Assembly: GCA_044892505.1 (NCBI GenBank)
Contig: CM097882.1
Location: 163,184,001 to 163,248,000, forward strand
Reading direction: 5' to 3'
DNA from: Schmidtea nova
Lineage: Eukaryota
Length of the DNA: 64,000 nucleotides
Positions 27,610 through 53,699 of the stretch are shown piece by piece. Position numbers and translations under genes: made by a program. Position 1 is the first letter of the stretch, and each line of letters starts with the position of its first letter. The notes under the pieces are model-generated. The model searched no databases, was not told where the DNA came from, and saw only the letters and a list, made by a program, of their open reading frames with translations.

Positions 27610-30600
27610 AAAAAACGTGGCAATGATTTAATAATAGAAAAACGCCAACTAAATAAATTCAACATAAACGCGATATATTTCGATTGTATAACAATATTCG
27701 TCAGGCAGCAATCAGGACAATCAATAATTAAATAGAAAATATGCAATATCTAAACAAATTAACTAATAATAATCATCTCTATACTATATATTTATACTAT
27801 CAAAATTTAATTTAATTTTTTTATTAGATAAAATTTAAAAAATTATGTAAAACAACATTTTTGATAATTCAACATACATTTTTTTAAAAAATAAAATAAA
27901 ATTTTACAATTCAGCATTCAATTTACAAATTTAAAAAAATGAAAATGTCGTTGGACATTAATTAGTGAACATACTGCTAACTTTGCAAGACGTGGAAACA
28001 ATTCTAAATTGATCCTTGTCGACATGTTTGAGAATCTTATGCTTAAATTCTCTGAAGCCCTCAGAATAAGGCAATACCAACACATATTTCGGCTCCGTGC
28101 GATTAGATCGATTTTTGTCACTTTCCGAAATTAACAAAGTACTTTTATCAGAATCAATAGGTGCATTGCATTCAGACGCACGCATACCAAGATCATTAGC
28201 ATTCAACCTTAACTTATTCACGGTCACTTTCGTCATTTTCTCAAGAAAAGATTTAGAGTAACCATTTTTAAGTAACTGATAGTGGTCTGTATACAACGCC
28301 TGAGACTTTTTGTGACTTTAAATATAAGAGGAATATGCTGAGAGGATTAGTGTTTCGTGCTTGGTCACTATCTTCTACGTTTGTGAATTCAGTAAACAGT
28401 ATTGATGCCTTGGTTGAATTGTTACTGACATGAAACATCCCGGAAGTCGAGACTGCTTGGCAAACAAATTCCCTCTGTCTCACCAACCTGAATCCAATTC
28501 GACAGACTTCAGTCACTCTATATTCACATTTACCTGAAAGATCCATAGTAATGACAAGTTCAGAAGACAAAACGTTATCTGTAGGTCATAGATTGAAATT
28601 GAGAGATTCGGCAAATGGAGAATCAGAAGCTGTCATGCTTTCATTAACATAACTGTCGTTATTCTCATCCATATTTAATTGAAGAATTTCGAATGAAAAA
28701 GGAACACAATCAGATTAAATTTTAAATCAGCTTTAATCCTTTATTAATTTAAAAAATCCAATTACAAATACATTACAAATTCCAATTCAAAAACCCTTTT
28801 TTAAACCCACAATTACCAATTAAAATTTAAAATTCTGATAAACCCCGTATTATTTAAACAACCTTTTTTAAACAAGTAAATTAGCCATTAATTAATAGTT
28901 TTTTTTATAATTACCAAATATAATTTCCTAGAATCAAAATTTCATAAAAAAAATTAATTTTGAATATCAACAAATATATTTACAGACTTCGTTTTGGAAT
29001 CTTCATTTTATTACTTTATCGACTATTTCAAGAGCAACCATTTAAAAATAATGTTATTTTAATAATTAAAAGGCAATATTGTTTAAAACATCTATGTTGA
29101 AAGTAATAGATCTGGCTTGTTCATCATTGATATGTGCAAGTTACCCATATATCGAAATTACAGTTAAGTTTCTATCATATTTTAATAATTTTATATTCTC
29201 AATTGTTACGTAAATAATAAGTAAAATTAACAATCAAAATTAAAAATCAAAATTTTTATATAATAGTTAAAAGATGCGATCTCTCGCAGTTCTTGCTAAT
29301 TTTTCAGATTACTGAATTTATTTTAAAGCATTTTTTTAATAAATTATAAAAATATGTTTTACAGTTAAAAGAAATTCAAAGTCCAAATCTGTTAATGACA
29401 ATGACCGATTATTTACCAATGATTTTGAAACTGTAAGAAAATGCTTTTATTCTCCAACATTAAGTGTTAGCCAAATAAATGAATCTAAGGAATCAAGAAT
29501 TAAAATAAAAAGAGTTGCAATCAGAGCAAAAAGTGAACCACGTCAGCTAAAAATATCACGAATACAAGTACATNNNNNNNNNNNNNNNNNNNNNNNNNNN
29601 NNNNNNNNNNNNNNNNNNNNNNNNNNNNNNNNNNNNNNNNNNNNNNNNNNNNNNNNNNNNNNNNNNNNNNNNNNNNNNNNNNNNNNNNNNNNNNNNNNNN
29701 NNNNNNNNNNNNNNNNNNNNNNNNNNNNNNNNNNNNNNNNNNNNNNNNNNNNNNNNNNNNNNNNNNNNNNNNNNNNNNNNNNNNNNNNNCCTTTGATCTT
29801 TTTTTATTATTATTATCAATAATTCTCATAATGACTATAGATCAAAATTTTTTTTTATATAAACAATAACACAATTTTAATTTTAACACAATTAATTTTA
29901 GAAGTTCTAAAATTAGCAATAAATTCAGATACTGTCATAATTAAAGAAAAACCATTCAAACAAATTCATGGATTAGCCATGGGTAATAACCTTTCTCCCA
30001 TCTTAGCCATCTTCTACATGAACTTTATAGAATCTAAGATCATATCTTTTTTTGGGGACAAAATACTTTTCTGGAAACGATACATCGACGACATCTTCAT
30101 AGTCTCCACAATCCCTCTCAATCAAATCCTATCACACGCAAATTCTACTAACACCAACATACAATTTACTTTTGAAACACCGAACACAGAAGGTAAAATA
30201 CCGTTTTTAGATACCATGGTAAGTTTCACAAAAGGCCAAGATACACTAAATGCAAACACCGAGCTATATTCTAAAGGTTTACATAGCGGTCATATCCTCC
30301 CATGGAAAAGCCACGTTCCACTTCAACGCAAAATCGCATTACTAATAGGAGAAAGAAAAAGAGCCATAAGAAACTGTTCAGACGCAAACAAAATACAAGA
30401 AACATTAGAAAACTTCAAAATACGATTCCTCCAAAATGGATACCCTGAAGACTTTGTAAAGAAACACTTCCTTAACGAACCATACCACAATAAACGCAAC
30501 AATAGAAAACGCCAGAAACACAATAACAATAACAAACACACAACATATCTAAGATTACCTTTCCTAAATGACACTACAGCCAACAAAATCACCAACATTT

Positions 30601-32890
30601 TTAATCAAACAGATTTGCCTATCCACATCCGTCCAACGTTCATAACCTCCGCACCGTTAAAATCACAACTCCGAAAGCCACCAATTTCCAACATCTCCAA
30701 ACATAAATGTCTTTGTCGTTCCACAACCCGATGCTTTTGCTTTTCCAAAAATATAGTATATAAACTTTCTTGTCAAAAATGTGACGCTACTTACATAGGA
30801 GAAACACATAGAACTTTTCGCACCCGACTTAATGAACATACTAAAATCAAAACCAGTAATTATTACGAACACTGGGAAAAAGTACATAAAACAACTCCAT
30901 CTATAGAAGAAACAAAATGCCAGATCCTACAAGAGGGATTCAAAAATTCATTACAAAGATTAGCTTCCGAGACTTTTTTCATAAAAAAATACAAACCGTC
31001 CATCAACATTCAATTCGCACAAAAAAATTAAAATAAAATAAATTTTTTCATCCAATAAAATCATTATAAAATATTAAAAAAATAATTAAGGCTACTATTT
31101 AGGATTAAGTAAATATAACGATAGAAATACACACTTGATAAAGGCTGTGCCGAAATATTGTGTTATTGTTTATAAAAAAAAAATTTTGATCTATAGTCAT
31201 NNNNNNNNNNNNNNNNNNNNNNNNNNNNNNNNNNNNNNNNNNNNNNNNNNNNNNNNNNNNNNNNNNNNNNNNNNNNNNNNNNNNNNNNNNNNNNNNNNNN
31301 NNNNNNNNNNNNNNNNNNNNNNNNNNNNNNNNNNNNNNNNNNNNNNNNNNNNNNNNNNNNNNNNNNNNNNNNNNNNNNNNNNNNNNNNNNNNNNNNNNNN
31401 NNNNNNNNNNNNNNNNNNNNNNNNNNNNNNNNNNNNNNNNNNNNNNNNNNNNNNNNNNNNNNNNNNNNNNNNNNNNNNNNNNNNNNNNNNNNNNNNNNNN
31501 NNNNNNNNNNNNNNNNNNNNNNNNNNNNNNNNNNNNNNNNNNNNNNNNNNNNNNNNNNNNNNNNNNNNNNNNNNNNNNNNNNNNNNAAAAAACACAAATT
31601 GCGCACACAGACTACAAAGTCTGGTGCAACAGACGAACAACCAGTGTCAAAACATGGGTTTATGAATACAAACAAAATATCAATTGAGTCAATGACAATC
31701 TCCGGATAAGCCATTGCCCAAAATAACACGTCAATTTTAGTTTAAAATGAAGGTTTTGACCACTGTTTTTTTGTTCATTATGAATTTCTTCCGAAAGACA
31801 AAACGACCAAGAGTATTACATCGGTGTTATGAAATTTTTGCGTGAAGCTGTGCATTTGAAAAGAAAAAATGGAAATTTTAGTGATTTTTTCTTGTCCAGC
31901 AGACTCAAAAAGCTACTTTGAGGAACTTATTTTAATAGCATTGATGTAATAAAAGACAAATTGAAGTCTCTCATGGCTATGCCGAAGATTGATTATGAAA
32001 AAAACATTCGAGCACTGGATTAAACGTTGTCACAAATATATTGCTTAGGGTGAGGATTAATTTAAAGGGTAACTTCGAAGGATTAATTTGCCGCCTGTCA
32101 ACTGTTTTTTTAATTATTTCACTATGATGATTTATCGTTGAACCGGTAAGTCATACCCTTTTGAGCTAGGCTATTCAGATCTCGTATTTTGGTAAAATTG
32201 TTAATGCTATCTCGTTTACAAACATTGAGACTAATAACAATTATTAATTTTTAAGATTCGAAACTCTGGAAAGTGGGAAATTCCTAAATCTGACATTACT
32301 AAGAGCTATAGAATAGGCTCCGGCTCATATGGTACTGTATATAAAGGCTATTGGCATGGAAATGTTGCAATTAAAGAATTAAATGTCTTTAATCCATCTT
32401 CAAGTCAGCTTCGAGCATTTATAAATGAAGTGTCTGTTTTAAGAAAAACTAGACACGTTAATATTGTTTTATTCATGGGGTATATTATCAAACCGAAATT
32501 AGCAATTGTGACTCAGTGGTGTGAAGGTTCAAGTCTTCATAAACATATCCATGTTTTGGAAAAGAGTTTTAATTTCCATGATATTATTGATATCTGTAGA
32601 CAAATATCTCAAGGAATGGAGTAAGATTTTAGTATTGATTTTAAAAAAATATCAGTTTTTTTGATCATTTAAATTCTGAATTTTTTCAATAAATGATGGA
32701 GAACTTTTAGAATCATTATTAATTTTGACCCTAAAATTATTTTATGAAAAATATTATTAAATTACAATTTTATTTTCTTAATCTTTTAATGCTTACTTTT
32801 TCTAAATTACACTTTAAATATATATATATATATATATATATAAACAAGCATTCATATACTAAAACCATATATGTTAGAACAATAGTCAAG

Positions 32891-33172: not shown

Positions 33173-36100
33173 TATATGAATATATATGAATATACCATAT
33201 ATTTTNNNNNNNNNNNNNNNNNNNNNNNNNNNNNNNNNNNNNNNNNNNNNNNNNNNNNNNNNNNNNNNNNNNNNNNNNNNNNNNNNNNNNNNNNNNNNNN
33301 NNNNNNNNNNNNNNNNNNNNNNNNNNNNNNNNNNNNNNNNNNNNNNNNNNNNNNNTTTTCAAAAAATTGTAATTCAACTTGCACAACTACGATTTAAAAA
33401 TAAACTTGTAATATGTCACTGTCTAATCTGCATGAGCATGTCATTCAAAACTTTGAATGAAATGACCTTTGTAATTCATTATTTTTCTTATTCACAGGAG
33501 AATGTGAGAACCTCAAATAGATTTTATTTCATATTTTTTGGAACCATCAAGAAATTGTTGTACAGTAGTGAACTTCGTTATAAAACAAAGTTGTCTGTTT
33601 ATTTCGATGATTTTAACAAAAGTTCTTGTCGTGATTTACAACGATTTCACATAAAATACAGAATGGTTCATTATTCGGCGACTTTTTAAATTTTTTTAGA
33701 AACATTCGCATGATTTCATAAATTTTTGATGCATTACTTTAAACAACTTCGCACATGCTATTTAAACTTAAAACTTAGACCTGAAGTTTACTTAATTCAA
33801 AGATAAAATATAAAAAGTATAAAATAAAATTACCTATCTAAGGATACAGCGTACTATTGACTTGTAATACATATTTATATATTATTGTTATATTGTTTAT
33901 ACATTCTGTTTGGTAAAATGCTAAAGCAATATAATAAATTTAGCAAATTGAATAAACGAATAAAATTAAATATGATCAATTATACTGAACTGACTAAGGG
34001 GCCTCGAAGTAAATCCATATACCTAAAGTTTATATACAATAAGAACTTGTTGGTCAACGACAGAAATGTTAAAAAACAAAAGTTTATTAAGTTTACTTTG
34101 AAAAATGTTTTAAATTATAAACAAATAAATAATAATTTTTTCTTTAAAATTAGGCGCCTTGTGTAAATTACTTAGTAAAATGTACTTAAGATTGATTTTG
34201 ATTACTTACAATTAAACCTGCTATAATTTGTCATCTCTCATTTTTATCAGCAAGATTTCAGTCCACTAATTTCATTATATAAGTACTGATCTGTTAGCGA
34301 AATATAATTTATTTATTAAAATTTATTTCTAATTCGCTTTTTCTCAAGTAAAAATATTGTAAAATACAGTTGGTACTCACTTTAATGTGATTTAAGAATA
34401 ATTACAATCTGTGGATAATTTGGACTGATTTTCGATATACTAAGTTTTCACTTTTTCCGTAATTCTGTATTTTTATTTTAGAAATTATGATTTAATAATA
34501 AAAAGGATAAGTAATAACTAGAACGTATAACTAACGCATAATAAATGTATAAAATATTCTCATTCGAAAATGAATTTAAGACGAGCTCTAGATCGTTTTT
34601 ATATAATGTAAATGTTAGCGTTAGGACTAGGTTTTATTAATTTTTTAATCTACAAGTATTTTACCTTGTTCTTAATTGATTAATATATTAATTTAATACA
34701 ATACTGTTTCGTTTATTTAAAATAAAAATTCTGAATATTTTATTTTTACTTAAGATATTTACATGCTAAATCAATTATTCACCGAGATTTAAAATCAAGC
34801 AACATATTTTTACACGAAAAAATAATCAAAATTGGTGATTTTGGTCTATCTACAGTTAAGTGCTCATGGTCAAAATATAGATCTCAACACCCAACTGGGT
34901 CGATTTTATGGATGGTAGAAATTTTACTTTTATATATAATAAATTAATATTGTAATAATTTTTTTAAATAATTTTATTATTTAAAAATATATATGTTTAA
35001 CTATTTAACTATAAAGCCCGTTAAATGATGGTCGAAATTTTTTAAAATGACTTCTAAAATTATATAACCAATACCACAAGCTGTCACTTATTACGAGCAA
35101 ATGAGACATATTTTAAGTGCAATTGGCACTAATTTAGTAAATTTTTGTCTTATTTTGATGTTTAAATGTATTTTATTTCTTAAATTAAATATAATTATGC
35201 ATTTATATAAATATTTGAGGATTTTTCTTATTATTTTGTTAAAGGGTAATATTTTAATAATGATTATTTTAGCGTAAATATTATCTAAATGATAATTTAT
35301 GTCTTTCAATGATATATTATTCGACACGTAAAACATTCAAAATATCCGTAAAAATCTTTTTTTTTAAATTTTAAGTGTCCGTAATTAGCTGATTTTTACT
35401 TAATTTATGTCCATATGTGTGTATTTTTATTAAAGGTTCTTGTATGTTTTTTGACTTTTTATTCTTCTGGTTTACTTTACTAATTGTACGTATTTTTGAC
35501 TGCTCACTTAATTTTTGTCCTTATTTGAAGTAAGTATATACTTTAAAGTAAGTATATACTTGTTCTTTTGCAGTGTTACATTAAGTAGCATCACCTATAA
35601 TATAAAAAAATCAAAAAGCTTACCGTATAGAAAAATGCACACCTACCGTTACACTATTCATTGCTGGTTTACTCAGCAAAGCATTTGTCGTAGAATAAGA
35701 GATTAAAAAATTTAAGCACACACAAAAACAAAACATAGAAAAAACAGATGCAAACATTCAGACGCCTTAAACGTTTCAATTGGTAAAAGCACCATATTGT
35801 TGGGGTTAGTATAAAAATCACAAAAGTAACAAGAAATAATAGTAAAAAGCAAAGAAATATCAAAATAAATAAAAGATTTATTAAAATTTATCAAGAATTT
35901 AAAATTAATATTCATCGGGGGAAATGGGTATGGTTGAATGCCAAATCAAGACGAACCCAAAAATAATAATAGAAATTTAGTAAGGGGTCTCCAGAGAAAG
36001 TTATATAGTAAAAACAAACTAATTGAAATTAATTAATCGTTCAATGGGAAGCCTGAGGCAATGGGAAACCCAAACGCAGTAGAGACCGTGAGATCAAAGG

Positions 36101-39100
36101 AGGGAGATTGCGCAGGGCAATTAGGAAAATCCACCCGAGCGCAATCATAATAATAAGCCCGATATTGGGTAACTTTTAATTGTTGATATAATTTAATTGT
36201 CATTTGCGAGATGTATAAAAGGCAACGCAAAGTAATGGACGAGGCCCGAGAAACTGAGAGCTTAAAAAGACGAAGTATTAAAATTTAGTGAAAATTAACA
36301 AAGAGAGATCTTGCGGAATTAGAAAGAGACAAAGTGAGGAAAGATATTTTTTTAACCGTTCTAACTAGAGGATCAAATCCGAATTAGGCAGAAAGTGCAA
36401 ATTGTCAAGTGTGTACTTCCTAGTGATTAAAAGAAGTTGTAATTTGTGGTGATCGTCTAATAAATTGTTCTGTGTTGGGTTTCATTGATTTTCGATAATA
36501 TAAAGGACACGAGGAGTCAGGTCATTAAACCGATTTTAAACAGAATAATAACCCAACAATATTATTGAAATTACGATGGCGCATGCAATTTTTTAAGTGT
36601 TTTATAGCAATTTACTCTGAGTTTTTGAGAAGTAAATGGAGCATGCAGAAGTCTGTCAAGGAATCATATATTTTTGAAAGAAAACCTTTAGATCTTAACC
36701 GCAATCGACAAGTGCCTAAACCTCAATGAAAAGTTTTTATTTTCAAAGAATTTCGGAATATTTTTCACAAAAAACTATTGCGTTTTGCAAACCTGATGTA
36801 CTATGGGATGAATTATTTTTAATTGTAAAAATATTTTACCTTTCATATTTTCCATGTACGCTCACCGATTACACAGCATTCGATACCCGAAAAAAATGTT
36901 CGAAGGTCGAAAATCGAAAGTTGAAATAATATATATTTAAAAAAAATATTATATGGTGATAGGATTTCAGATATTGACATGCCATCGAAAATAATCATGA
37001 CTAAATTCATTTGGAAAGTCCACTTGGAATACCAAAAAAATTTCAATCAGAAATATGATTTTAAAATATAAAAAATATGGTAATCTATCAAAAAGCAGAA
37101 AAGGTGGTAACAAGTCTCGAAGATTAATTTTTATAAATAAATTTTAGTTAAAAATGATTTTAACTTTGATTGTAAATAATTCCAAAAATAATAAAAAAAA
37201 TAATAATTTCTATAGAAATAGTAATTTCCTTCAAAGTAATTCTATTATATATTTCCGCTCATCAATGACTTATTGTGTAACGCTATGATAATTAATATAG
37301 AAATACTTTTTTCAAGAGGCTCTTCATTAAAAACAATTTTTGTCAAATATTTTTCATTGTTATTCATTTGCCTAATATTAAAAGAAATTGAATTTTTAAT
37401 AAATATTTCGCGTATATTTAATTAAAGTATTTGTTGTATTTCAATTAACTTTTTTTCAACTGATTAGTTAAAAATAAATTTGTAGAAGATAGATAATCTT
37501 TTAAAGCTTTTATAGTGATCTCATATCATTACTAGATCAAAATAAAAGCCTTAAAAGTTATCCTAATAAATTAAATTACATGAAAGCCATTTTAAAATAG
37601 CTAATACATAAAATTAAAATAAATGATTACAAATAACCTCGGATGTGCCACACTCACGTGTATAGCTAATGCTACTAAGTGAAACACAGTTTAGATAACT
37701 TAAATTGTTGTCTATCTCGCCCGTAATTTATGCTCTTTCATTATATAATTGTTTCTATTAAATAATCAATTTCTTTTAATTTTTCTGTTGTAATTCGTTA
37801 TGTTTGTTTTTACCAGATCAAGATGTTATAAAAATTTAAGAATAAACCCTGCAATTTTTGCATACCATTGGATTTTGCTTCGATCATAGTTCATGAAATT
37901 TTCAGTCATTGCAACACTGGGCATTAACTTTGTATAGTTGCTACATCGATTAGCATATTCTTACTGAATATTATCACCCAGGTTCTTTGACTGAAATCAG
38001 CATTAAATTTTACAATATAATAACCAAATGTTTCTCAAAGAGTGTTTCGACAAAATCTCCAATTGTGCTACGAAATCTTAAAAAATAAATTTTACATTTG
38101 TACAAACGCCAATCCAAATATATATTCTGAACAATATATTTCGAGAACTTAATTCTCTTCATCAGGTGCTACTCAATCTTCCATTCAAATATAAATCAAA
38201 TAAATCGATTTTTCAAACGAATTAATATTAATTTTTAAAATAAAATGCATTTTATAAATTTTATAAAACAAGTCAAAAAATTTTAAACGATTAAAAATTT
38301 TTTAATTTAAATAAATTTATCTTAAAAATATAATATTCTTTTCTTACAAAAAAATATTTTTTTTAAGAATATATTATAAATATTTTCATATTTATAAACA
38401 ATAGAAGGATTGAAAACAAAATCCATAATCCCCAATAGAAAATGCTCTAATACTCGAATACATAAATGACTTGTCCAAAGTATGTGGCATTTCGCCCATG
38501 AAATTTGAAAAATTAAACGAGTATAGAACACAAATCAAAAGAAAAAAATAAACATCATCAACAACCACATCAGTTAATTTACTTAAACCGCAAAAAATGA
38601 GGCAAACACACGCACTCAAAACTCTTACACTCACATATTCACAAACATCGATATGACTGATAACAACGTCAAATCCCATTAATTGACTCCGCTCTGAAAC
38701 TCGAATACAGAGAAGACTTTTCCAATGTATGTATTTTCCAACCCATGACGTTTGAAAATATAAACGAGAACAGAGCAAAGAGCAATACAGAAAACTTAGA
38801 ATCGCCAACAATCACACCAATTAATTCATAAATAAGAGAATAAGAGAAGGAATCAGCATGAATGTAAACCTCATAATTAAATCGAAATACTAATTTGACA
38901 AAACTATGCATTTAGAATTATAAAAATTAAATACAAACTTTTTCCTAGACAAACTTTCACAGGATACCGGCACAACTGAAGGAAAATTATTTTTCTTCAA
39001 TACTTAACACACACACACACCTGCGCACGCACACACCTGCGCACACACACACCTGCGCACACACACATATATATTTGTACAAATGTTAATAACTGAAAGT

Positions 39101-41292
39101 TTATTTATGTATTAAATAATTTATGATTTACTTTTCTGTTTAATAGTGCAATTCATTATGGCTTCTACCTCAAAATAAAAGTTATGTTTAAATTATCTCT
39201 TGTTTTCATTTATTTAAAAGTTAATTGTTTACTATAATATTTTTACTATNNNNNNNNNNNNNNNNNNNNNNNNNNNNNNNNNNNNNNNNNNNNNNNNNNN
39301 NNNNNNNNNNNNNNNNNNNNNNNNNNNNNNNNNNNNNNNNNNNNNNNNNNNNNNNNNNNNNNNNNNNNNNNNNNNNNNNNNNNNNNNNNNNNNNNNNNNN
39401 NNNNGCCAGGCGACCTAGGCCATAGCCTAGGGCCCTTTTTTTTAGAGGGCGCCAAAATTTATTATAAACAATCAAAGAAAATTATAAAATAAGCCTCCAA
39501 AACTTTGTATTTTGAAATTTATCTATGAAACCAACCGTTTTAAAAAAATTTGAAAATAATAAAAAACAAAAAAAAAGTACATGCAAAATATACGAATTTC
39601 CAATTCTGAGAAATTCTGATGTATTGAAATAAAAAAAATTTATATGTATTACAAAAACTGATGTGCGAGTTAAATTAACAGCTATAGCTACCAGTTTTTT
39701 TTTGCGAGTGTGGCGAGTGGTGAAAGAAGTTTTAGTAAATTAAAACTAATAAAAACGTATTTGCGATCTACTATGACGGAAGATAGGTTGAATAATTTGG
39801 CCATTATTTCAATTGAAAATAATGTTGTAGCAAACCTAAATTTGGAGGCAGCAATAGAAAAATTTGCAGACATGAAAGCCAGGAAAAAATCATTCTTATA
39901 AATTCTGTTTTTTTATATATATGTAAATCAATCGAAAAAAATGAAATGAAGTAATAAATATATATTTTATTTTATATTTTTAAGATTGATTTATTTAAAT
40001 TTTTAAATTTTTAATCGATATAAATTTTTTGACTATAATAGAATTTAAAATATATATTTTATTTTAAAAATTAATACTAATTTGTTCGAATAAATCGATT
40101 TAAGTGATTTATATTTCGATGTAAGATTGGGTAGCACCTGATGAAGAGAATTAAGTTCTCGAAATATATTGTGCAAAATATATATTTGGATTTTGGTTTG
40201 TTGTTAATAATATTTGTGCCATGCTGGTTGTGTTATGTATTAAAGAAAGATAATAATCCGTCAGTTGTTCCGGTATTCTGTGAAAGTTTGTCTAGGAAAA
40301 TGTTTGTATTTAATTTTTATTATTCTAAATGTATAGAGTTTTATATTGTCAAATTAGTATTTCGATTTAATGATGAGGTTTACACTTGTGCTGATTCCTT
40401 CTCTTATTCTATTGTTTATGAATTAATTGATGTGATTGTTGGCGATTCTAAGTTTTCTGTATTGCTCTTTGCTCTGTTCTCGTTTATATTTTCAAACGTC
40501 ATGGGTGAAATGCCACATACATTGGAAAAGACTGCCCGTCTTCTCTGTATTCGAGTTTCAGAGCGGAGTCAATTAATGGGATTTAGCGTTGTTTTCAGTC
40601 ATATCGTTGTTTGTGAATATGTGAGTATGAGAGTTTTGAGTCCGTGTGTTTGCCTCATTTTTTGCGGTTTAAGTAAATTAACTGATGTGGTTGTTGATGG
40701 TGTTTATTTTCTTCTTTTGATTTGTGTTCTATACTCGTTTAATTTTTCAAATGTCATGGGCGTAATGCCACATACTTTGGACAAGACTGACCGTCTTTTC
40801 TGTACTCGAGTTTTAGAGCATTTTCAATTGGGGATTATGGATTTCGTTTTCAATCATTCTGTTGTTTATAAATATGAAAATATTTATAATATATTCTTAA
40901 AAAAAAATATTTTTTTGTATAAAAATAAAAGAATATTATATTTTTAAGATTGATTTATTTAAATTTTTAAATTTTTAATCGATATAAATTTTTTGACTAT
41001 AATAGAATTTAAAATATATATTTTATTTTAAAAATTAATACTAATTTGTTCGAATAAATCGATTTAAGTGATTTATATTTCGATGTAAGATTGGGTAGCA
41101 CCTGATGAAGAGAATTAAGTTCTCGAAATATATTGTGCAAAATATATATTTGGATTTTGGTTTGTTGTTAAGTAATAAATAGATTGTTTTTTGTTAATCT
41201 TTTTTATTTTATCATAATTTTTGTACCAAATTTTTAAAATAGGGCGCTTTTTATAATTTTCGCCTGGGGCGTATAATTATCTCGAACCGGCG

Positions 41293-41380
<88 letters not shown>

Positions 41381-41657
41381 CTATGTTTAGGCCCCAGAAG
41401 TTATAAGAATGGATACAATAAATCCTTATACTGAGAAATCAGATGTGTATTCATTTGGAATAATTATATATGAAATTGTTGCAATGAAATTACCATATAA
41501 TCACATTAATAATAAAGAACGGATCCTATTCATGGTTGGCAAAGGATTTCTATCTCCAGATTTAAGTCTTATTAAAATAACTTTACCACATCAGTTTAAA
41601 CATCTCATGATTGATTGCCTTAACTTCGATCGTGAATGTCGTCCAGGATTTACCCAG
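15151..41657 (+). CDS. raf: Raf-family Ser/Thr kinase gene, multi-exon; last exon not identified
   Basis: GT-AG exons with consistent phases: 15151-15270, 15314-15417, 15458-15633, 15692-15779, 24550-25162, 29365-29567, 32256-32620, 34755-34914, 41391-41657. Junction between 25162 and 29365 probably needs one more small exon (~25209-25244), unresolved. Confidence 0.92.
16222..17157 (+). CDS. gag: Gag with Asn-rich tail
   Basis: VSVKIPAIF...WFKQVEASF; [18 protein letters not shown]; (NNNNK/QF)n near the C-terminus. Confidence 0.92.
   Translation: MNLINGVSNSQVDHVSVKIPAIFQNQSLWFKQVEASFKISRITEETTKYFYLISNLPTTMLSKYEHLLDSETELPYSTLKEAILAEFELSRKISITELMREECLGDRSPSEALQHITGQIQRIDTAMDPFNSPISRELFMRLLPSSVQDILLSMPTTDLRKLAVTADRIMLSKRQSVKTVEHENCNTQELGDKTRTIMELQEEINVIRQQLRNKSTSKLCFYHSKFGHRARKCQPPCDWNANQNDNYRSEKYIREKYQNLEPSNISSMNNNNFNNNNKFNNNNQFNNNNKFNNNNTFNNNRENQGNERRFH
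17133..17139 (+). promoter_or_regulatory. -1 ribosomal frameshift slippery site G GGA AAC
   Basis: Heptamer is in the correct phase in gag (CAG GGA AAC) and the -1 frame is continuous with pol. Confidence 0.8.
17154..20114 (+). CDS. pol: Pol: protease, RT, RNase H, integrase; one in-frame TAG at 19461-19463
   Basis: FLIDTGAD; YIDD; LCTDAS; HISHP/CRQCQRC; VHLDIVGP; ERE*ISRFGVP (Trp position) continues in frame through TDQG and NGKIERWH. Confidence 0.95.
20415..20455 (-). ncRNA. Degenerate hammerhead motif in a Penelope pLTR fragment
   Basis: Minus strand ACTAGATAAAGGCTGTGCCAAAATACCGTGTA; core mutated; adjacent to the ATGACTATAGATCAAAA pLTR tag. Confidence 0.4.
22631..22663 (+). ncRNA. Degenerate hammerhead motif, Penelope family
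   Basis: GTGATTAAGGATGTGCCGAAATATCGTGTA; 3' half intact, 5' core decayed. Confidence 0.4.
22938..23058. mobile_element. Small MITE-like inverted-repeat element
   Basis: CCGGCCTATCAAAAGTCTCCA ... TGGAGACTTTTGGTAGGCCGG. Confidence 0.7.
24550..25162 (+). CDS. raf: Raf Ser-rich hinge exon
   Basis: Acceptor at 24548-49 in phase 2 matches exon 4; Ser-rich 225-aa ORF frame; KRSQSD and KVPSVPN resemble CR2-type sites. Confidence 0.7.
27200..27232 (-). ncRNA. Minimal type I hammerhead ribozyme, U3-A8 variant, in a solo pLTR
   Basis: ACAC-TTGATAA-A-GGC(TGT)GCC-GAA-ATAT-T-GTGT, identical to 31131-31163. Confidence 0.7.
27668..27707 (-). ncRNA. Hammerhead-like motif, third family, probably degenerate
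   Basis: GC-CTGACGA-A-T-ATTGT(TAT)ACAAT-C-GAA-ATATAT-C-GC; T.C mismatch at the base of stem II and short stem I; lies 3' of the Penelope-like fragment in the sense orientation. Confidence 0.45.
27900..28700 (-). pseudogene. Internally deleted Penelope-like element fragment
   Basis: [13 protein letters not shown] and [10 protein letters not shown] resemble the post-RT linker of the intact Penelope ORF ([17 protein letters not shown]). Confidence 0.55.
29365..29567 (+). CDS. raf: Raf exon preceding the kinase domain
   Basis: Open exon KRNSKSKS...[19 protein letters not shown] ending in phase 0, matching the phase-0 acceptor at 32256. Confidence 0.6.
29979..31031 (+). CDS. Penelope RT C-terminal half plus GIY-YIG endonuclease
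   Basis: [57 protein letters not shown]. Confidence 0.95.
   Translation: MGNNLSPILAIFYMNFIESKIISFFGDKILFWKRYIDDIFIVSTIPLNQILSHANSTNTNIQFTFETPNTEGKIPFLDTMVSFTKGQDTLNANTELYSKGLHSGHILPWKSHVPLQRKIALLIGERKRAIRNCSDANKIQETLENFKIRFLQNGYPEDFVKKHFLNEPYHNKRNNRKRQKHNNNNKHTTYLRLPFLNDTTANKITNIFNQTDLPIHIRPTFITSAPLKSQLRKPPISNISKHKCLCRSTTRCFCFSKNIVYKLSCQKCDATYIGETHRTFRTRLNEHTKIKTSNYYEHWEKVHKTTPSIEETKCQILQEGFKNSLQRLASETFFIKKYKPSINIQFAQKN
31131..31163 (+). ncRNA. Minimal type I hammerhead ribozyme, U3-A8 variant, in the Penelope 3' pLTR
   Basis: ACAC-TTGATAA-A-GGC(TGT)GCC-GAA-ATAT-T-GTGT; predicted cleavage after 31159; palindromic stem III. Confidence 0.75.
31590..32080 (+). pseudogene. Mariner transposase remnant
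   Basis: [43 protein letters not shown] with frameshifts and a central deletion. Confidence 0.75.
32256..32620 (+). CDS. raf: Raf kinase exon, subdomains I-VIa
   Basis: WEIP...[21 protein letters not shown]...[19 protein letters not shown]...TQWCEGSSL...QISQGME. Confidence 0.97.
32810..33205. repeat. (TA)n microsatellites interleaved with a ~60-bp unit, two direct copies and one inverted copy
   Basis: AACAAGCATTCATATACTAAAACCATATA...GTCAAGAAAT at ~32842 and ~32934; reverse complement at ~33050-33108. Confidence 0.85.
34755..34914 (+). CDS. raf: Raf kinase exon, catalytic loop and activation segment
   Basis: [19 protein letters not shown]...[15 protein letters not shown]...GSILWM. Confidence 0.97.
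35600..37680 (+). mobile_element. Decayed IS630/Tc1-like transposon, homolog of 61235-62645
   Basis: 35630-35760 matches 61295-61420; 36960-37110 matches 61830-61990; 37490-37610 matches 62445-62560. Boundaries approximate. Confidence 0.65.
38107..39072 (-). mobile_element. Non-autonomous hammerhead-bearing retroelement, single-repeat copy
   Basis: Reverse-complement homolog of 40237-41170; flanked by direct ATTTGTACAAA (38096-38106, 39073-39083); (CA)-rich tract at one end. Confidence 0.75.
38129..38169 (-). ncRNA. Hammerhead ribozyme motif with one stem I mismatch
   Basis: GCAC-CTGATGA-A-GAGAAT(TAA)GTTCTC-GAA-ATATAT-T-GTTC. Confidence 0.55.
40134..40174 (+). ncRNA. Type I hammerhead ribozyme
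   Basis: GCAC-CTGATGA-A-GAGAAT(TAA)GTTCTC-GAA-ATATAT-T-GTGC; predicted cleavage after 40170. Confidence 0.75.
41098..41138 (+). ncRNA. Type I hammerhead ribozyme, second tandem copy
   Basis: Identical to 40134-40174, 964 nt downstream. Confidence 0.75.
41391..41657 (+). CDS. raf: Raf kinase exon, APE to subdomain XI
   Basis: APEVIRM...SDVYSFGII...[25 protein letters not shown]...RPGFTQ. Confidence 0.97.
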
Positions 41658-41796
41658 GTTTATAAATTATTATATAAATGTTTTTTTGTTATTAAATAAA
41701 TTCAAAAATTTAGCTTTTAGTGCAAATTTATAAATAAGAGTTACAATTTATTTTTAAAAATAGCACCCATATACGAATCCAAGTCAATTATACATA

Positions 41797-43155
41797 CAGT
41801 CCCTTAAAAAAGTCGTGAACAGTTAAATTTATTCATAATTTCTTAACAAATTTCGTAACAACCCGAATAAAGTGAAAGGCATTTACAATTTGAAACATTA
41901 TAATTAACTAATGTCCAGAGGGTTCCAATAATCAATTCAATATGACGTTGGACCACTGCCTTGCTTGATACATTCCTGTAGCCGTTTCGTCATTGACAGC
42001 GCAAGATTTTCAAAGAAAATGTTAGGTAACTGATAAACCAAGTATTGAGTATTGCGGCTTTTAAGTCAATTATGTTATCAAATTTCTATTTCCCAATTTG
42101 GTATTTCAGCAGGGACCACGCATTTTCAATGGGGTTAAGGTCTGGTGACTGAGGGGACAATCCAGCACAGTCCATCGTTGTTTATGGATCCATTCTTTTA
42201 CTATTTCTTGCGGTGACATGGTGCACCATCATACTGTAGAACCCAATCTTTATTATTACCAAACGCCTCTCTAACGGAACTGCGTACTTCATTGTTCAGA
42301 ACCTTTAAATATCACTGGGAGTTGCATCTGTCGTCATTGCACAAGAACCGAACCTTTCCAGGCCCAGAAGCAGTGAAACTCCCCCATAACATAATAGAGG
42401 ATGGATGTTTGAGTGTAGGGACTGTAAACTTTAATTTATCATCCTTTTTCGCCACACACGCTGGCGTCTTGAATTATTTACCACAGATATTCTTGTTTCA
42501 TCAGTGAACAGCACTTCTTTCCGAAATTCTGAAGGCTCGTTGACATACTTCTTTGCAAACTTTAATCTCATTTGTCTGTGCCTTTTTGTTAACAGTGACT
42601 TCTTGAGCGGTAACGAGGATCTAAATCCCATTCTAGCCAAATAATTCCTGACAGTTTGATTGCCGATGTTTATATTCATGTGATTATCAAGAAATGCCTT
42701 CAAATACTCGCCGGTAACGGCCGAATTCCTTGCGATTTCTAATATCAAGTGTCGTTGAACTCTGCTTGAAAGTATCTTCTTTCGACCACAATTTCAATAT
42801 TTGTTAGGCAAATCATTCGTTGTTTTGTACTGCTTTACCACTTTCGAAATTACTCTAACAGAAATATTGAGGTTCCTCGCAATTTTTCGAAAATTTTCCC
42901 CAGTTTTCAATTTATTGATGATTAAAGATCGAACTCTTCTATTCAAGACAGTGTTTTGTGCCATGTGTATTCTCAAAAACACGTGGCATAAAAATAAATG
43001 GAGTTTAGACAAAATAATGATTTCGTTGATATGAAATAAATGAAACAACATATTGGAATTATGTTAACATTTTCTCCTTGAGTACACTAACAACAAACAT
43101 TTAGACTTTTACATACAGAAAACTATAGGTGTTCACGACTTTTATTGGGTGACTG
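41797..43155 (-). mobile_element. Tc1-family DNA transposon, frameshifted
   Basis: TIRs CAGTC...AAAAGTCGTGAACA; HTH MAQN...KIARNLNISVRVISKVVK; VLFTDET, LQYDGAPCH, PQSPDLNPIENAW. Confidence 0.92.
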
Positions 43156-43960: not shown

Positions 43961-44700
43961 ATACACTTGATTAGAAACTAAACCCATTGGGGTTTGTGAT
44001 TTATTCGTTAAACAAATTTTAAACTTCTTATGTGAGGCAATGATGAGAAATATATCTGTTATAATGATCGATAATACCTCATGTGTATTTTTCTCTATTG
44101 AATGTTTCTTTCATTGGTCCACGTGTATCAATATAATTCTTTTCATGAAGTTCTGTATTTACAATTGTTTAGGTTTCTTCTTTAGTAAATGTCTTTGTTT
44201 TCTATCACGCAATTCAGTTTGAAATTACTAAATTTATTTAATCGCAATTAAAATTTGTATTAAATAACAATGACTTACAAAGTTTATCCCGGATTACAAA
44301 TATGTTCTGTTGAAATCAAAGAATCGTCTAAGAACTGATAGTAGCAAAGATGTGTAAATTTAAGTTCAAAACTGTAAGTAAGCTAGTTAATAATGTATAG
44401 TGAACAGTTAATGGTAGTTGTTGTTAAAAAGTGACTGATTTGGCCGGGCTTATATAGTAATTTGGTTGGTTGCCTTAGCCAATCAGATTCTTTCGTTATT
44501 TTATTTAGCGATTTGATTTGATTGGTTTATCCAATCAAAGTTTGGGTTTCTCCAATAATTGGTTTGTATTTATATTTATTATTTTATTATTCAATTTCTT
44601 CAACCTAAATTTCAAAACGGGGTTATTCATCGGCAATCATTTATTTTCTTTCCTCTTAGTTATTTAAATTTTCCCTTTTATTTTGTAATTGCTTTTATAT

Positions 44701-46111
44701 TCCTTTTAAGTATTTTATTTAAATCATATTTTTAGTGGTTTTGCTAACACAACATAATTATGAAGGGGTTTAACTGACGGATATATCAGACTGGAAAAGG
44801 GCGAGCGAAGATTCGAGAAAAAGCGGCTATTCACATGGGACCCAACCATGTAACAGTGTAAGGGGAGTAAAACAAATACTCTTGAAAAAATTCCGTCGCT
44901 CAACTGATCAGACAACGCTCTGTTCTTAACTACACATTTTTTAGTAGACAGTATTAATGTTTCAGTAATAGTATAGAAGTCTTTAAGTAATTATTTTTTG
45001 TTATGAATAATGACGTTCTCTTTTAGATATGGGTTTTTCTTCTCCCTGGTAACTTAAAGATATTTTTTTAGTGTTTAACCAATTACTCCTCACTAAAGCA
45101 GTAATAATCCACAAAGTGCAACCCAGACTTAGAAATATAAATCATGCTTTAATAAAATCTCCGTGAAACCGTAACAACTGCTAGCATAAAATATTTTATT
45201 GGTATAAATTGAAGAAAATTTTGAGTGCGAACAATTTTAAAATCTTAATTTCAAATTTATTTATCAATGTTAGCATATTATAGAAACAGAGTGTAGTAAA
45301 CAAGCCAGGAATCGGGGGAAATTTTGGAAATCCATAAAATCAGTGTTTTGCCCCCTTTTAAAAAAATTAACAGTCCCAGGTATTGAAAACAAAATTTTAT
45401 TAAAATCCTTTTAAGTATTTTATTTAAATCATATTTTTAGTGGTTTTGCTAACACAACATAATTATGAAGGGGTTTAACTGACGGATATATCAGACTGGA
45501 AAAGGGCGAGCGAAGATTCGAGAAAAAGCGGCTATTCACATGGGACCCAACCATGTAACAGTGTAAGGGGAGTAAAACAAATACTCTTGAAAAAATTCCG
45601 TCGCTCAACTGATCAGACAACGCTCTGTTCTTAACTACACATTTTTTAGTAGACAGTATTAATGTTTCAGTAATAGTATAGAAGTCTTTAAGTAATTATT
45701 TTTTGTTATGAATAATGACGTTCTCTTTTAGATATGGGTTTTTCTTCTCCCTGGTAACTTAAAGATATTTTTTTAGTGTTTAACCAATTACTCCTCACTA
45801 AAGCAGTAATAATCCACAAAGTGCAACCCAGACTTAGAAATATAAATCATGCTTTAATAAAATCTCCGTGAAACCGTAACAACTGCTAGCATAAAATATT
45901 TTATTGGTATAAATTGAAGAAAATTTTGAGTGCGAACAATTTTAAAATCTTAATTTCAAATTTATTTATCAATGTTAGCATATTATAGAAACAGAGTGTA
46001 GTAAACAAGCCAGGAATCGAGGGAAATTTTGGAAATCCATAAAATCAGTGTTTTGCCCCCTTTTAAAAAAATTAACAGTCCCAGGTATTGAAAACAAAAT
46101 TTTATTAAAAT
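44701..46111. repeat. Near-perfect 705-bp tandem duplication
   Basis: Identical ORFs at 44724 and 45429; only one difference noticed (G45315 vs A46020). Confidence 0.93.
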
Positions 46112-46567
46112 CAACAAATATGCAATGATCTGCAACTTAACAGTTCAATGGCGCGCTGCTTTTTAGTCATTGGTTTTTTTGTTATTTTATTGCAATTTGT
46201 TTATCAAATATATTATTCTGTGAAACAATATTTTAATAGATTATATTTAGATACATTCAAAACTGGAGAACTTTGAAAAATCACATTTGAGAATTAAGAA
46301 ATGCACTTCAGAACCAAATATATCAATTAGACATATACCATATTCTGATGAAGAAAGTAGTGTTTCAATAAAACGATAGATAACGACAATTTGTTTTGGA
46401 GTAGGACATTTTATAATAAATTGCTTGAAATTCACTACGTTCTGATTTTTATAATTATGTTTAACAAGGCAAACTAAACAGTATAATATTAAAATTAACA
46501 ACAAATAAAAACTAATATAATCAATGTTATTGTACAGCTGAATGAAGATATTGATTAATTGAGAATA

Positions 46568-49548: not shown

Positions 49549-50590
49549 GGTAATCTTTTACTTTACCGGTCCCGTGCACGTAGTCTATGGGAACACACCT
49601 ATTTTACTTAACCGGTCCCACATAGAAATATATTATCTTAATAATTTATATGCTAATTTATATTTTAACAATTTTGTTTTACTACACTTATTAAGCCATG
49701 TTGATTACGGACTTAATGCCTCTCATTCATGTTTTCACGTCGAATTTCACGTCAAATTCCGCCAAATTGTCATACATGCAATGGCCTCATGACTGAAGTT
49801 CGATGCTCTGATCGTAAAGATGGCTTGTTGTATCGTTGTCCCAAGCACAAGGGAAACAAAGAATCTATCCGAAAAGGAAGTTTCATTCAGAATTCACATT
49901 TATCTTTACGGGAATTTACATTACTCGCTTACTTCTGGTCTTATCGTATGCCATTATCGTCTGTTAGTTCTATTGTTGGTATAACACCAAAAACTATCTG
50001 CGTCTGGAATAATTTCTTTCGTGATGTTTGCGTGCGCATTGTATTGAGCAACATCCTGTAGTGATTGGTGGACCAGGGATTATTGTGGAGATATACGAGT
50101 CAGTGGTATCCAAACGTAAATATCAAGTTGGACGTGTGGCGCCTCAACGCTGGGTATTCGGTGGTTACGACACTGTTCGTAAGATAAGATTTCTGCGTCT
50201 AGTTCCTGATCGAAGTGCTGAAACTCTGCTACCCATCATCAAAGAATGCATTGCTCCAGGTTCTGTGATCCATTCAGATTGTTGTCCAGCTTATGGGGGA
50301 ATTAAGAGTCTTCCTGTCATTCCTCCATATGTTCACTACACGGTTAATCACTCGGAGAATTTTGTAGATCCTGAAAGTGGAGCTACGACAAACCACGCTG
50401 AGCGAATCCCAAGTCAATGAGTGGAACAAGTGAAGAACTACTGTCATCTCATCTTTCAGAGTTTCAGTGGCGTTCTGTACGTGAGGGATGTGTATTTGAC
50501 TGATATTGCTAATTGGTATGTTGTTTGAATCATTCAAAATTATATTGGAATACTTTGAATTTTGGGACCGGTAAAGTAAAATAGGTTTCG
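49549..50590 (+). mobile_element. Merlin (IS1595/ISXO2-like) DNA transposon, inactive
   Basis: TIR core TTTTACTTTACCGGTCCC (49556-49573 and 50564-50581); Zn ribbon; VEIYES (first catalytic D replaced by Y), WVFGG, IHSD, TVNHSENFVDP; frameshifted. Confidence 0.9.
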
Positions 50591-52367: not shown

Positions 52368-52798
52368 ATATGAATCTTAATTAGTTGGAACTCCAATATT
52401 TAATTGTGTTATAGTATCACTTATTCAAACAAAAACAACTGGAAATTTCTGTTAAAAAAGAGTATTTTAATTTATTATTAAAAAGAGATATATGTTTTAA
52501 AGTTAAAAATTAAAGAACTTTATAATTTAACATTGACTAATAATGTAATGAATAAATTAAGAAAATTAATAAAAGTTTATATTTTAGTTAAATGTAAATG
52601 ATTGAATTTAAATAGAAATCATATTAATGGTCACATGTTTTTATCAAAATTTTATTACCAAATCTAAAAATTATTTTTCAGTTAGGACAACAAATGTTTT
52701 AACGCAGCAATAACAATAATAAGAGTAACGCCGAATTTAAATAAATGGTACCAAAAAACGGTTAAAAAGTAAAAGAAATAATATTGTTGGTTCCTATT

Positions 52799-53035
52799 GG
52801 TGGGTTGCTGATCGTCAATATGACCTTGACGTTGCTATGGCTCTCATCAACAACTCAACACATAAAACATTAGATTTAACCAATTTGTTGCCCGTCACTA
52901 TGTAACGCTGGTAATGCAACAAATGGGTGGGTATTCGCAATCAGTGAGCGTCGTCAATACGAAACTATGATTGACCGAATATCTCCTGGGTTCAAGGGCT
53001 ACCGATAGAAAGTTTAATGCCCATTTCCGTCCCTT
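52799..53035. other. Module C copy
   Basis: Stem reads TTTGTTGC/GCAACAAA here versus CTTGTTAC/GTAACAAG at 9338-9377. Confidence 0.55.
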
Positions 53036-53699
53036 GTTCAACGATTTAACTACGGGTATTCGTTTCAATTTAAAAGAAAACATAAATAGTTTCATCAATA
53101 TAAATTTATTAATTTTTTTCCCACTTAATCATTATACATAGTATTATCCAAACGCACAGGAGTTTTCGCGTATCTACTTTTATTTGCAAGCTCATGCTTA
53201 AGCATATAATCACAAACTCAATTCGGGGATTGAAAAATCCTTGATCATCCCTATGCTCAGGGTATTTGATTTCTGACGATTTTAACTAAACTTTATTATT
53301 TTCTAGGCTTTTTAAATTTGTATATTTTTGTGTCAGTAAATTAATCTAAATTTTACTTATCCCCTATACCTAATGTCTGACTTGCTTTATATTATGGATT
53401 TAATTTTTAATTTAAAATTTAACATTATAGCTTTTGAATTCTTGCCATGGCCTTGACAACGGCAACGGCTGCAATGTTGGATATTTAAACAAACTTAAAT
53501 GTCTTGGTTATTTCGTCTATCCATTCAAAGCCGTTTCTGTATAAAAAAATTTTTGTTATATTAAAATTTATTTTCTGGACTTTAAAATGTTATATAATGT
53601 TGGGCAAAAACTACAAATCGTTTTAAAAAAGCGATAACCCCATAAGTAGAGAGCGCGCAAGATTCCATTTTAACCCAAGCATCCATTGAAAATCCAAAT

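What the first reader, a model, noticed from the sequence alone, without database searches (positions are those of the whole stretch)
39961..41169. Retrozyme-like element: two tandem hammerheads 964 nt apart with a 12-bp TSD
Seen: identical ~230-bp direct repeats each contain GCAC-CTGATGA-A-GAGAAT(TAA)GTTCTC-GAA-ATATAT-T-GTGC; the insertion is flanked by AAGTAATAAATA; a second copy at 38107-39072 (-) has its own 11-bp flanking duplication. No RT, PBS or PPT is visible. Established: retrozymes are non-autonomous hammerhead retroelements that yield circular RNAs; as I recall, animal examples are mostly a few hundred nt. Inference: a ~964-nt monomer or circle mobilised by target-primed reverse transcription, probably by Penelope-like elements, and larger than typical animal retrozymes.
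Basis: partly seen in the sequence, partly recalled or inferred. Interest (0 to 1): 0.75.

Follow-up and report, generated by a model that had tools for sequence, protein, structure and literature searches.

The report
Penelope-dependent ribozyme retroelement in planarian
A 964-base piece of mobile DNA in a flatworm gene intron carries a self-cutting RNA motif, folds into long hairpins and appears to be copied around the genome by a helper retrotransposon; this is a known kind of element, here unusually large and with an unexplained long reading frame.

Summary
There are two minimal type I hammerheads 964 nt apart in 236-nt identical repeats, inside a 12-bp target duplication, and a second copy (88.6% identical, 11-bp duplication) on the other strand. 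Both sit in one intron of a planarian Raf gene. The element has no RT or endonuclease but has Penelope-like (PLE) geometry: a PLE-type ribozyme, both 3' ends 26-37 nt past the cut site (the PLE 'tail'), and an AUG inside the ribozyme. New here: the unit is strongly self-paired on the ribozyme strand (z about -8), with compensatory changes between two duplicated hairpin arms. Copy 2 is almost exactly one unit, opened at the reverse-transcription start, as a circular template would give. Copy 1 has a 268-codon open frame starting in the ribozyme core, longer than in any shuffle, but with no homologues, no amino-acid conservation, and frameshifts in copy 2. Best reading: a non-autonomous PLE-mobilised element that works like an animal non-LTR retrozyme. 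Its size is at the top of, not beyond, the published range (51-972 bp). Cleavage, circles, translation and the helper PLE were not testable.

The parts
39949..39960 (+). Left target-site duplication of copy 1 (12 bp, AT-rich)
39961..41169 (+). Copy 1: 1.25 units (1209 bp), sense to the Raf gene
39961..39968 (+). 8 nt at the 5' junction that mostly do not match the repeat (7 of 8 differ)
39969..40205 (+). 5' pseudo-LTR-like partial unit
40134..40174 (+). Minimal type I hammerhead 1; predicted cut after 40170
40141..40947 (+). 268-codon open frame; its AUG lies in the ribozyme core and its stop at the start of the 3' repeat; no homologues, function unshown
40171..41134 (+). Predicted 964-nt monomer between the cut sites; about 70% paired, branched fold
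40410..40625 (+). Hairpin arm A of the internal 255-nt duplication
40665..40880 (+). Hairpin arm B, 72-75% identical to arm A over the core, same structure with compensatory changes
40933..41169 (+). 3' pseudo-LTR-like repeat with tail
41098..41138 (+). Minimal type I hammerhead 2; predicted cut after 41134
41135..41169 (+). 35-nt tail from the cut site to the 3' end (inferred start of reverse transcription)
41170..41181 (+). Right target-site duplication of copy 1
38096..38106 (-). Target-site duplication at the 3' end of copy 2 (11 bp); its first 5 nt on the element strand match the element's tail
38107..39072 (-). Copy 2: about one unit, permuted at the 3' end; 88.6% identical to copy 1; frame broken by indels
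38129..38169 (-). Hammerhead of copy 2, with one mismatch in stem I
39010..39072 (-). TG-rich 16-nt minisatellite at the 5' end of copy 2
39073..39083 (-). Target-site duplication at the 5' end of copy 2
34915..41390 (+). Host Raf kinase intron holding both copies; one assembly gap (39250-39404) lies between them
29844..31163 (+). Context, a different family: 5'-truncated PLE (RT plus GIY-YIG-like C-terminus) followed by a U3-A8 minimal hammerhead at 31131-31163; shows that helper-type PLEs exist in this genome

Best explanation
A non-autonomous retroelement with a 964-nt unit, mobilised in trans by a Penelope-like element (PLE), that works like an animal non-LTR retrozyme. (1) Inferred: a more-than-unit copy such as copy 1 is transcribed by RNA polymerase II, from its own repeat or by read-through (copy 1 is sense in a Raf intron). 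(2) Inferred from architecture: the two minimal hammerheads cut weakly, as a dimer through their palindromic helix III or with protein help, and release the 40171-41134 monomer, which a host RtcB-type ligase may close. (3) Shown by computation: this strand folds into a compact branched structure that has been under selection. (4) Inferred from both junctions: a PLE GIY-YIG endonuclease nicks AT-rich DNA, and the PLE RT starts inside the RNA about 30 nt past the cut site, copies back through the ribozyme and goes round the circle (or along a tandem precursor). Stopping after about one turn gave copy 2, and after 1.25 turns copy 1, each with an 11-12-bp TSD. The long frame occupies the position of a PLE ORF; it is either kept open for the sake of translation itself or is a relic, and a specific protein function is unlikely.
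For: The ribozyme has the features of PLE minimal hammerheads listed in PMC4209133: short helix I, long helix II, extra base between positions 9 and 10.1, G10.1-C11.1, palindromic helix III. In the energy model the fold with helix III costs 6.4 kcal/mol as a monomer (-1.3 vs -7.7) and nothing as a dimer (-15.4 = 2 x -7.7). The 3' ends lie 35-37 nt (copy 1) and 26-31 nt (copy 2) past the cut, while the 5' ends differ; PLE tails are 30-40 bp and mark RT start sites (PMC11167929). AUG to 3' end is 65 nt, about 22 codons, the figure given for pLTR plus tail in an Adineta Penelope, where TSDs are 8-10 bp (PMC3846280). Circular fold -243.0 vs -184.5 +/- 7.3 kcal/mol in 40 shuffles (z -8.0); opposite strand z -2.7 (20 shuffles); 14 control folds of other window stretches differ from their shuffles by -13 to +18 kcal/mol; copy 2 z -5.5 (20 shuffles). 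Arms A and B in both copies: 97.8% of 232 cells paired, 9 of 58 pairs with double changes, slid controls 37-45%. The 70 substitutions between the copies break 16 confident pairs vs 27.0 +/- 3.5 at random (5 of 5000 as low), and refolding gives -222.4 vs -194.2 +/- 9.3 (best of 30: -218.0). No RT/EN relic by a profile of 22 PLE proteins (best E 0.64; positive control 1.5e-112). A PLE with a related minimal hammerhead lies 9 kb away.
Against: No RNA data: cleavage, ligation and expression are unshown. In published tests only 1 of 9 Xenopus retrozyme dimers cleaved in vitro, and for an anole PLE the uncleaved RNA was the dominant template and cleavage was not needed. Here the cleavage triplet is AUU (recalled as slow), the helix III duplex is only -0.8 kcal/mol, and stem I forms with probability 0.06 in local context. 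The linear monomer folds as well as the circle (-248.0 vs -243.0), so folding does not favour circularity. 26 of the 41 changed MFE pairs are broken in copy 2, and only 181 of 339 pairs are shared with its own fold. The covariation rests on 4 related sequences from which the structure was itself derived. The PLE in the window shares no blastn similarity with the element, so the helper is unidentified. Only two copies could be examined. The long frame does not fit the description of retrozymes as non-coding.
Confidence: 0.8

Rival explanations
1. Same element and helper, but no circle: uncleaved linear tandem transcripts are the template and the hammerhead is a weak or vestigial part of a pLTR. 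It is then a PLE deletion derivative or pLTR-cargo-pLTR unit rather than a retrozyme in the circRNA sense. This overlaps with the best explanation in all steps but 2.
For: Cleavage was dispensable and unprocessed RNA dominant for an anole PLE in vitro. pLTRs alone can move unrelated cargo in trans (PMC3846280). Weak ribozyme features here. The linear fold is as stable as the circular one.
Against: Copy 2 starts at or before the position matching 40229, within about 30 nt of its own 3'-end position on a 964-nt unit. Random truncation would give that about 3% of the time (rough estimate, one copy). The 31-nt core is identical in copies that differ by 11%. The interior is a structured, selected RNA, not passive cargo.
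Confidence: 0.35
2. The element is a coding circular RNA. The 268-aa hydrophobic protein is made and used, and because its AUG lies 30 nt upstream of the cut, only uncleaved or re-ligated RNA can make it full length.
For: 0 stops in this frame vs 19 and 27 in the other two over 40135-40944. The longest frame in 1500+1500 block shuffles is 171 and 161 codons, and 229 in 4000+4000 shuffles that keep an internal duplication. The duplication period (255) is in frame. Start in the ribozyme and stop at the next repeat copy the PLE layout. A plant retrozyme has a ribozyme-containing ORF with signs of translation (PMC12029980).
Against: No homologue in Pfam, among 307 word-sharing candidates, in 1.84 billion representatives or in the Atlas (best score 0.75). 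Arms A vs B: pN 0.26, pS 0.24 over 53 codons. Copy 1 vs 2: 30 amino-acid changes vs 31.0 +/- 2.6 at random. Copy 2 has indels of 7, 8, 8, 1 and 5 nt and one stop. Stop avoidance since the duplication is not significant (P 0.12), and codon periodicity is explained by the lack of stops (258 of 2000). Single-sequence model pLDDT 40.8, uninformative.
Confidence: 0.15
3. The 5' repeat is an assembly artefact: a short-read assembler walked repeat, interior, repeat at a locus that holds only a shorter copy.
For: The repeats are identical over 236 nt. The assembly has 5 gaps in the window and a 713-bp, 99.6% identical tandem duplication at 44695-46112 that may be such an artefact.
Against: The TSD encloses both repeats and the 5' junction has its own extra bases. 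Identity is expected for a recent insertion. A misjoin needs the repeat-to-interior junction to exist elsewhere in the genome, so the tandem unit would still be real for the family. Copy 2 is independent.
Confidence: 0.1
4. A decayed remnant of an autonomous PLE whose interior is degenerate RT/EN coding sequence.
For: One of 22 PLE proteins gave a minus-strand match to its RT region at E 0.005 (copy 1) and 0.022 (copy 2), slightly better than the best of 30 shuffles (0.017).
Against: A profile of all 22 finds nothing (best E 0.64). A profile of the PLE N-terminal motif from 12 of the 22 does not score the ORF, while held-out members score 23-92 bits. The interior is a duplicated hairpin under structural selection.
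Confidence: 0.05

Closest known systems
Animal non-LTR retrozymes (Cervera and de la Pena 2020, PMC7229834; Li et al., bioRxiv 10.64898/2026.07.22.740005)
   Same: Type I hammerheads in head-to-tail repeats, no RT, TSD longer than 4 bp, low GC, highly self-paired unit, PLEs in the same genome.
   Different: Unit of 964 nt vs 170-400 nt typical (but 51-972 reported); PLE-type minimal ribozyme without visible loop-loop contacts; 1.25 and 1 units rather than arrays; internal duplicated arm; 268-codon frame.
Penelope-like elements with C-terminal GIY-YIG endonuclease, and their pLTR hammerheads (PMC4209133, PMC11167929, PMC3846280)
   Same: Minimal hammerhead in a ~200-240-bp terminal repeat, partial tandem, ORF start inside the ribozyme, 30-40-nt tail, AT-rich target, TSD of about 10 bp.
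   Different: No RT or endonuclease; unit of 964 nt rather than about 3 kb; strongly folded interior.
pLTR-flanked cargo of Adineta Penelope (PMC3846280) and non-autonomous Chlamys elements such as MRC1 (PMC8557442)
   Same: Non-autonomous, partial tandem repeats, moved in trans by PLE proteins.
   Different: The interior here is a conserved, structured family sequence rather than captured host DNA; canonical hammerheads were not found in most Chlamys elements.
Plant LTR retrozymes, e.g. NbRZ1 with the RZprot ORF (PMC7761336, PMC12029980)
   Same: Two hammerheads in direct repeats around a 600-1000-nt unit; precedent for an ORF that contains the ribozyme.
   Different: Those have type III ribozymes, 4-bp TSDs, PBS and PPT, and use Ty3/gypsy proteins.
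Obelisks and other ~1-kb coding viroid-like circles (seen only as search listings)
   Same: About 1 kb, self-paired, one long ORF.
   Different: This element is integrated with TSDs, is branched, and its ORF has no homologue in any search run.

Membership tests
Animal non-LTR retrozyme | Type I hammerhead in each repeat unit | tested here: met
   minimal type, which Li et al. include
Animal non-LTR retrozyme | Head-to-tail tandem with at least two consecutive ribozyme-bearing units | tested here: inconclusive
   Copy 1 has two ribozymes but only 1.25 units, copy 2 one unit; other loci not available
Animal non-LTR retrozyme | No RT or endonuclease encoded | tested here: met
Animal non-LTR retrozyme | No protein-coding region | tested here: inconclusive
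   268-codon frame beyond chance but no sign of amino-acid selection
Animal non-LTR retrozyme | TSD longer than 4 bp | tested here: met
   12 and 11 bp
Animal non-LTR retrozyme | Low GC, highly self-paired unit RNA | tested here: met
   30% GC over 40135-40944; 70% paired, z -8.0
Animal non-LTR retrozyme | Unit size within the known range | tested here: met
   964 vs 51-972 bp; outside the typical 170-400 nt
Animal non-LTR retrozyme | No PBS or PPT | not tested
   No tRNA comparison was run
Animal non-LTR retrozyme | Self-cleavage and expression as linear and circular monomer | not testable with these tools
   Needs RNA data
Animal non-LTR retrozyme | PLEs in the same genome | tested here: met
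   PLE at 29844-31031 with its own hammerhead; not shown to be the helper
Autonomous PLE | ORF with telomerase-like RT and GIY-YIG endonuclease | tested here: not met
Autonomous PLE | Partial-tandem pLTRs with a minimal hammerhead | tested here: met
Autonomous PLE | 30-40-nt tail, 3' end downstream of the ribozyme, ORF start within the ribozyme | tested here: met
   35-37 and 26-31 nt; AUG at 40141
Plant LTR retrozyme | Type III hammerhead and 4-bp TSD | tested here: not met
   Type I; 11-12 bp
Obelisk | Oblin protein, rod-like fold, no genomic DNA stage (features recalled, and from abstract starts) | tested here: not met
   No homologues; branched fold; integrated with TSDs

The most novel reading that the evidence does not exclude
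An animal retrozyme-like element that is a miniature PLE with its own protein: a 964-nt structured circle whose 268-codon ORF starts inside the hammerhead core, so that self-cleavage removes the start codon and ligation restores it. This would be a ribozyme-gated coding circRNA that still retrotransposes, an intermediate between non-coding retrozymes and coding viroid-like agents. In addition, unit-length permuted insertions like copy 2 would be direct genomic evidence that PLE RTs copy circular templates.
Probability: 0.17. Interest if true: 0.8.

Novelty: new variant of a known kind. Interest (0 to 1): 0.5.

Why it matters
That PLEs mobilise animal retrozymes through circular RNA is a standing hypothesis, supported so far mainly by co-occurrence and pLTR similarity. 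This element shows the PLE tail geometry at two independent insertions, one of them a near-exact permuted monomer. A survey of copy ends in the host genome would therefore test directly whether the template is circular and where RT starts, in a laboratory flatworm group. The open frame, if translated, bears on how protein coding arises in viroid-like RNAs (PMC8781251). If neither holds, it is one more large retrozyme-like family.

Tried and rejected
Rfam: nothing relevant. Homologues of the 268-aa product: none (only proteins of 147-469 aa were candidates; longer and shorter forms were not searched with that tool); blastp against 22 PLE proteins gave a best E of 0.38. The structure model was too poor to search (pLDDT 40.8), so no fold search was run. 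A resemblance of residues 29-40 to a PLE N-terminal motif was tested and rejected. A weak minus-strand RT-like match was rejected. Synonymous bias and codon periodicity do not support coding. The ribozyme was not found in prokaryotic genomes (0 matches); that collection cannot hold eukaryotic copies. A bacterial promoter scan was at chance level (11 vs 10.2) and is not applicable. Polymerase III transcription was judged unlikely from 8 runs of 5 or more T in the unit (inference). The first constrained-fold attempt was mis-indexed and was redone; the copy 2 ribozyme slice was offset and its fold is not used. The first hammerhead scan missed copy 2 and the U3-A8 family, and the relaxed scan also missed copy 2; 3 of its 7 hits look like chance. 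Literature: searches for planarian or Schmidtea hammerheads and for coding animal retrozymes listed no description of this family or of a coding animal retrozyme; the library lacks most subscription papers and Repbase. The supplements of PMC7229834 and of the bioRxiv preprint could not be seen and may list flatworm or ~1-kb families. No host genome, reads, metagenome or viral contigs were available, so copy number, expression and the helper element stayed unchecked.

Full report
Observation. Copy 1 (39961-41169, +) has terminal repeats with period 964 that are exactly identical over 236 nt. Each holds a type I hammerhead with a 4-bp stem I, the CUGAUGA core, one extra A, a 6-bp stem II, GAAA and a palindromic 6-nt helix III segment; the predicted cuts are after 40170 and 41134. 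The 31-nt core occurs three times in the window and never in 100 shuffles. TSDs are 12 bp for copy 1 and 11 bp for copy 2; chance rates are 4 and 10 of 19052. Copy 2 (38107-39072, -) is 88.6% identical and has one hammerhead with a stem I mismatch. Rfam does not detect these ribozymes.

Host and position. A kinase exon at 32256-32621 is 91% identical to a Dugesia japonica kinase, and named non-planarian hits are at most 71%, so the host is most likely a dugesiid planarian (inference). Both copies lie in one Raf intron, 34915-41390, copy 1 sense and copy 2 antisense, with an assembly gap between them. Host transcription would therefore run through both ribozymes of copy 1.

PLE signature. The ribozyme matches the minimal PLE type described in PMC4209133 (parts 1-2 of 4 read). 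In part 1 of 3 of its supplement, 4 of the 12 alignment rows visible also appear to have U at the cleavage position. In the energy model helix III costs 6.4 kcal/mol in a monomer and nothing in a dimer, but the dimer helix is weak (-0.8) and stem I forms rarely in local context (0.06), so cleavage is probably slow or assisted. The 3' ends lie 35-37 nt (copy 1) and 26-31 nt (copy 2) past the cut; the ranges come from 2 and 5 nt of identity between tail and target. PMC11167929 (parts 1-2 of 4) shows that PLE RT starts inside the RNA downstream of the ribozyme at AT-rich nicks, that this gives the 30-40-bp tail, and that the ORF begins within the ribozyme. PMC3846280 (passages and section 9) reports pLTRs of about 200 bp, 8-10-bp TSDs, 22 codons of ORF in pLTR plus tail, and cargo moved in trans. 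Here AUG to 3' end is 65 nt. The window also holds a truncated PLE (29844-31031; 22 relatives at E<=1e-10) followed 103 nt later by a U3-A8 minimal hammerhead. It shares the architecture but no blastn similarity, so it is not shown to be the helper. The element itself has no RT/EN relic.

RNA structure. The monomer 40171-41134 folds at -243.0 kcal/mol as a circle, against -184.5 +/- 7.3 for 40 shuffles, and at -248 as a line (z -7.6, 0 of 20). The other strand is much weaker (z -2.7), and 14 control folds differ from their shuffles by -13 to +18. Copy 2 gives z -5.5. The interior has two long hairpin arms from a 255-nt duplication (72-75% identical over the core). Across both arms of both copies 97.8% of 232 cells pair, 9 of 58 pairs show double changes (14 of 500 shuffles) and 15 cells do (0 of 500), and slid controls give 37-45%; the structure came from these four related sequences, so this is supportive, not a probability. 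The 70 substitutions between copies break 16 confident pairs vs 27.0 +/- 3.5 at random (5 of 5000) and 27 of all MFE pairs vs 34.5 (115 of 5000). Against: 26 of 41 changed pairs are broken, and only 181 of 339 pairs recur in copy 2's own fold. The family has thus evolved under selection on the fold of the ribozyme strand, which implies an RNA stage.

Template. Copy 1 is 1.25 units. Copy 2 aligns from the position matching 40229 to its 3' end at about 41160-41165, so it is one unit short by about 30 nt, and its TG-rich 5' stretch may be an expansion of part of that gap. A reverse transcriptase that goes once round a circle and meets its own start would give this; random truncation would do so about 3% of the time (rough estimate, n = 1). 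Folding does not discriminate circle from line.

The open frame. 40141-40947 encodes 268 codons from an AUG in the ribozyme core to a stop at the start of the 3' repeat, 157 nt before the next AUG: the place of a PLE ORF. The frame has 0 stops against 19 and 27 in the others; no shuffle reached its length (0 of 3000; 0 of 8000 with an internal duplication, maximum 229). It was noticed after the fact, so these figures overstate significance somewhat. There are no homologues, pN equals pS between the arms (0.26 vs 0.24), amino-acid changes between copies are as random (30 vs 31.0), copy 2 is frameshifted and has one stop, and the model is uninformative. My reading (inference): the frame is older than copy 2's indels, because both arms are in register only in copy 1's spacing. 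It is either kept open for translation itself, for example to escape nonsense-mediated decay, or a relic; a functional protein is less likely (0.15). A plant retrozyme with a ribozyme-containing ORF is a precedent (PMC12029980, passages), and ribozyme cleavage can promote cap-independent translation (PMC13725137, abstract and passages).

Comparison. It works like an animal non-LTR retrozyme (PMC7229834, parts 2-4 of 6; PMC7761336, passages). Membership is provisional: no defining feature failed, but full tandem units, non-coding status and circRNA expression are open. It is not an autonomous PLE, a plant LTR retrozyme or an Obelisk. Other papers seen as passages only: PMC8557442, PMC6431247, PMC8781251, PMC11722881. 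Searches listed no planarian retrozyme and no coding animal retrozyme; two supplements that might list them were not visible.

Verdict. A real feature and a new variant of a known kind. Its value lies in the clear PLE tail geometry, the selected fold, the unit-length permuted copy and the unexplained frame, all testable with a genome-wide copy survey. Interest 0.5.

Noticed in passing
window 31131-31163 (+), 27200-27232 (-), 29790-29880 (-), 20332-20455, 22635-22739, 58592-58644: A second PLE hammerhead family with the U3-A8 core: intact after the RT/GIY-YIG ORF at 29844-31031 and at 27200, decayed or tail-only elsewhere, with an inverted tail at the 5' end of the truncated PLE; three copies abut assembly gaps.
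   Followed up: partly
window 40530-40537 and 40785-40792 versus copy 2: The same 8-nt segment of a small side hairpin is present in both arms of copy 1 and absent from both arms of copy 2, which suggests conversion between arms or a repeated structure-driven deletion.
   Followed up: partly
window 38107-39011 and 40229-41165: The two copies form a ~930-bp, 89% inverted repeat inside one Raf intron, a possible double-stranded RNA in the pre-mRNA; an assembly gap lies between them.
   Followed up: no
window 1158-5168 (-): 1336-codon frame with gag-like zinc knuckle, Bcl-2-like and mononegavirus-type fusion glycoprotein domains, matching the description of planarian Burro giant LTR elements; cut by the window start.
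   Followed up: partly
window 16096-20264 (+): Ty3/gypsy element with identical 140-bp terminal repeats, gag and pol, one in-frame stop in the integrase region, inside the Raf gene.
   Followed up: no
window 15314-46373 (+): Raf kinase gene exons (weak matches at 15314-15765; 29409-29570, 32253-32621, 34750-34914, 41391-41660, 46251-46373), spread over about 31 kb of transposon-rich introns.
   Followed up: partly
window 21187-21969, 42431-42793, 49717-50420, 61847-62314: Broken DNA transposons: piggyBac-type, Tc1-type and ISXO2-like transposase fragments; the last stretch looks Tc1-like by eye but had no Pfam match.
   Followed up: no
window 44695-46112: 713-bp tandem duplication at 99.6% identity; a possible assembly artefact.
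   Followed up: no
window 27958-28317 (-), 24512-25207 (+): Open frames of 119 and 231 codons without Pfam matches; the first looks by eye like a PLE thumb/linker fragment, the second may be a host exon.
   Followed up: no
window 6524-7059; 9253-14490 and 52796-64000: A ~144-nt tandem repeat and several dispersed repeat families at 70-95% identity, unclassified.
   Followed up: no
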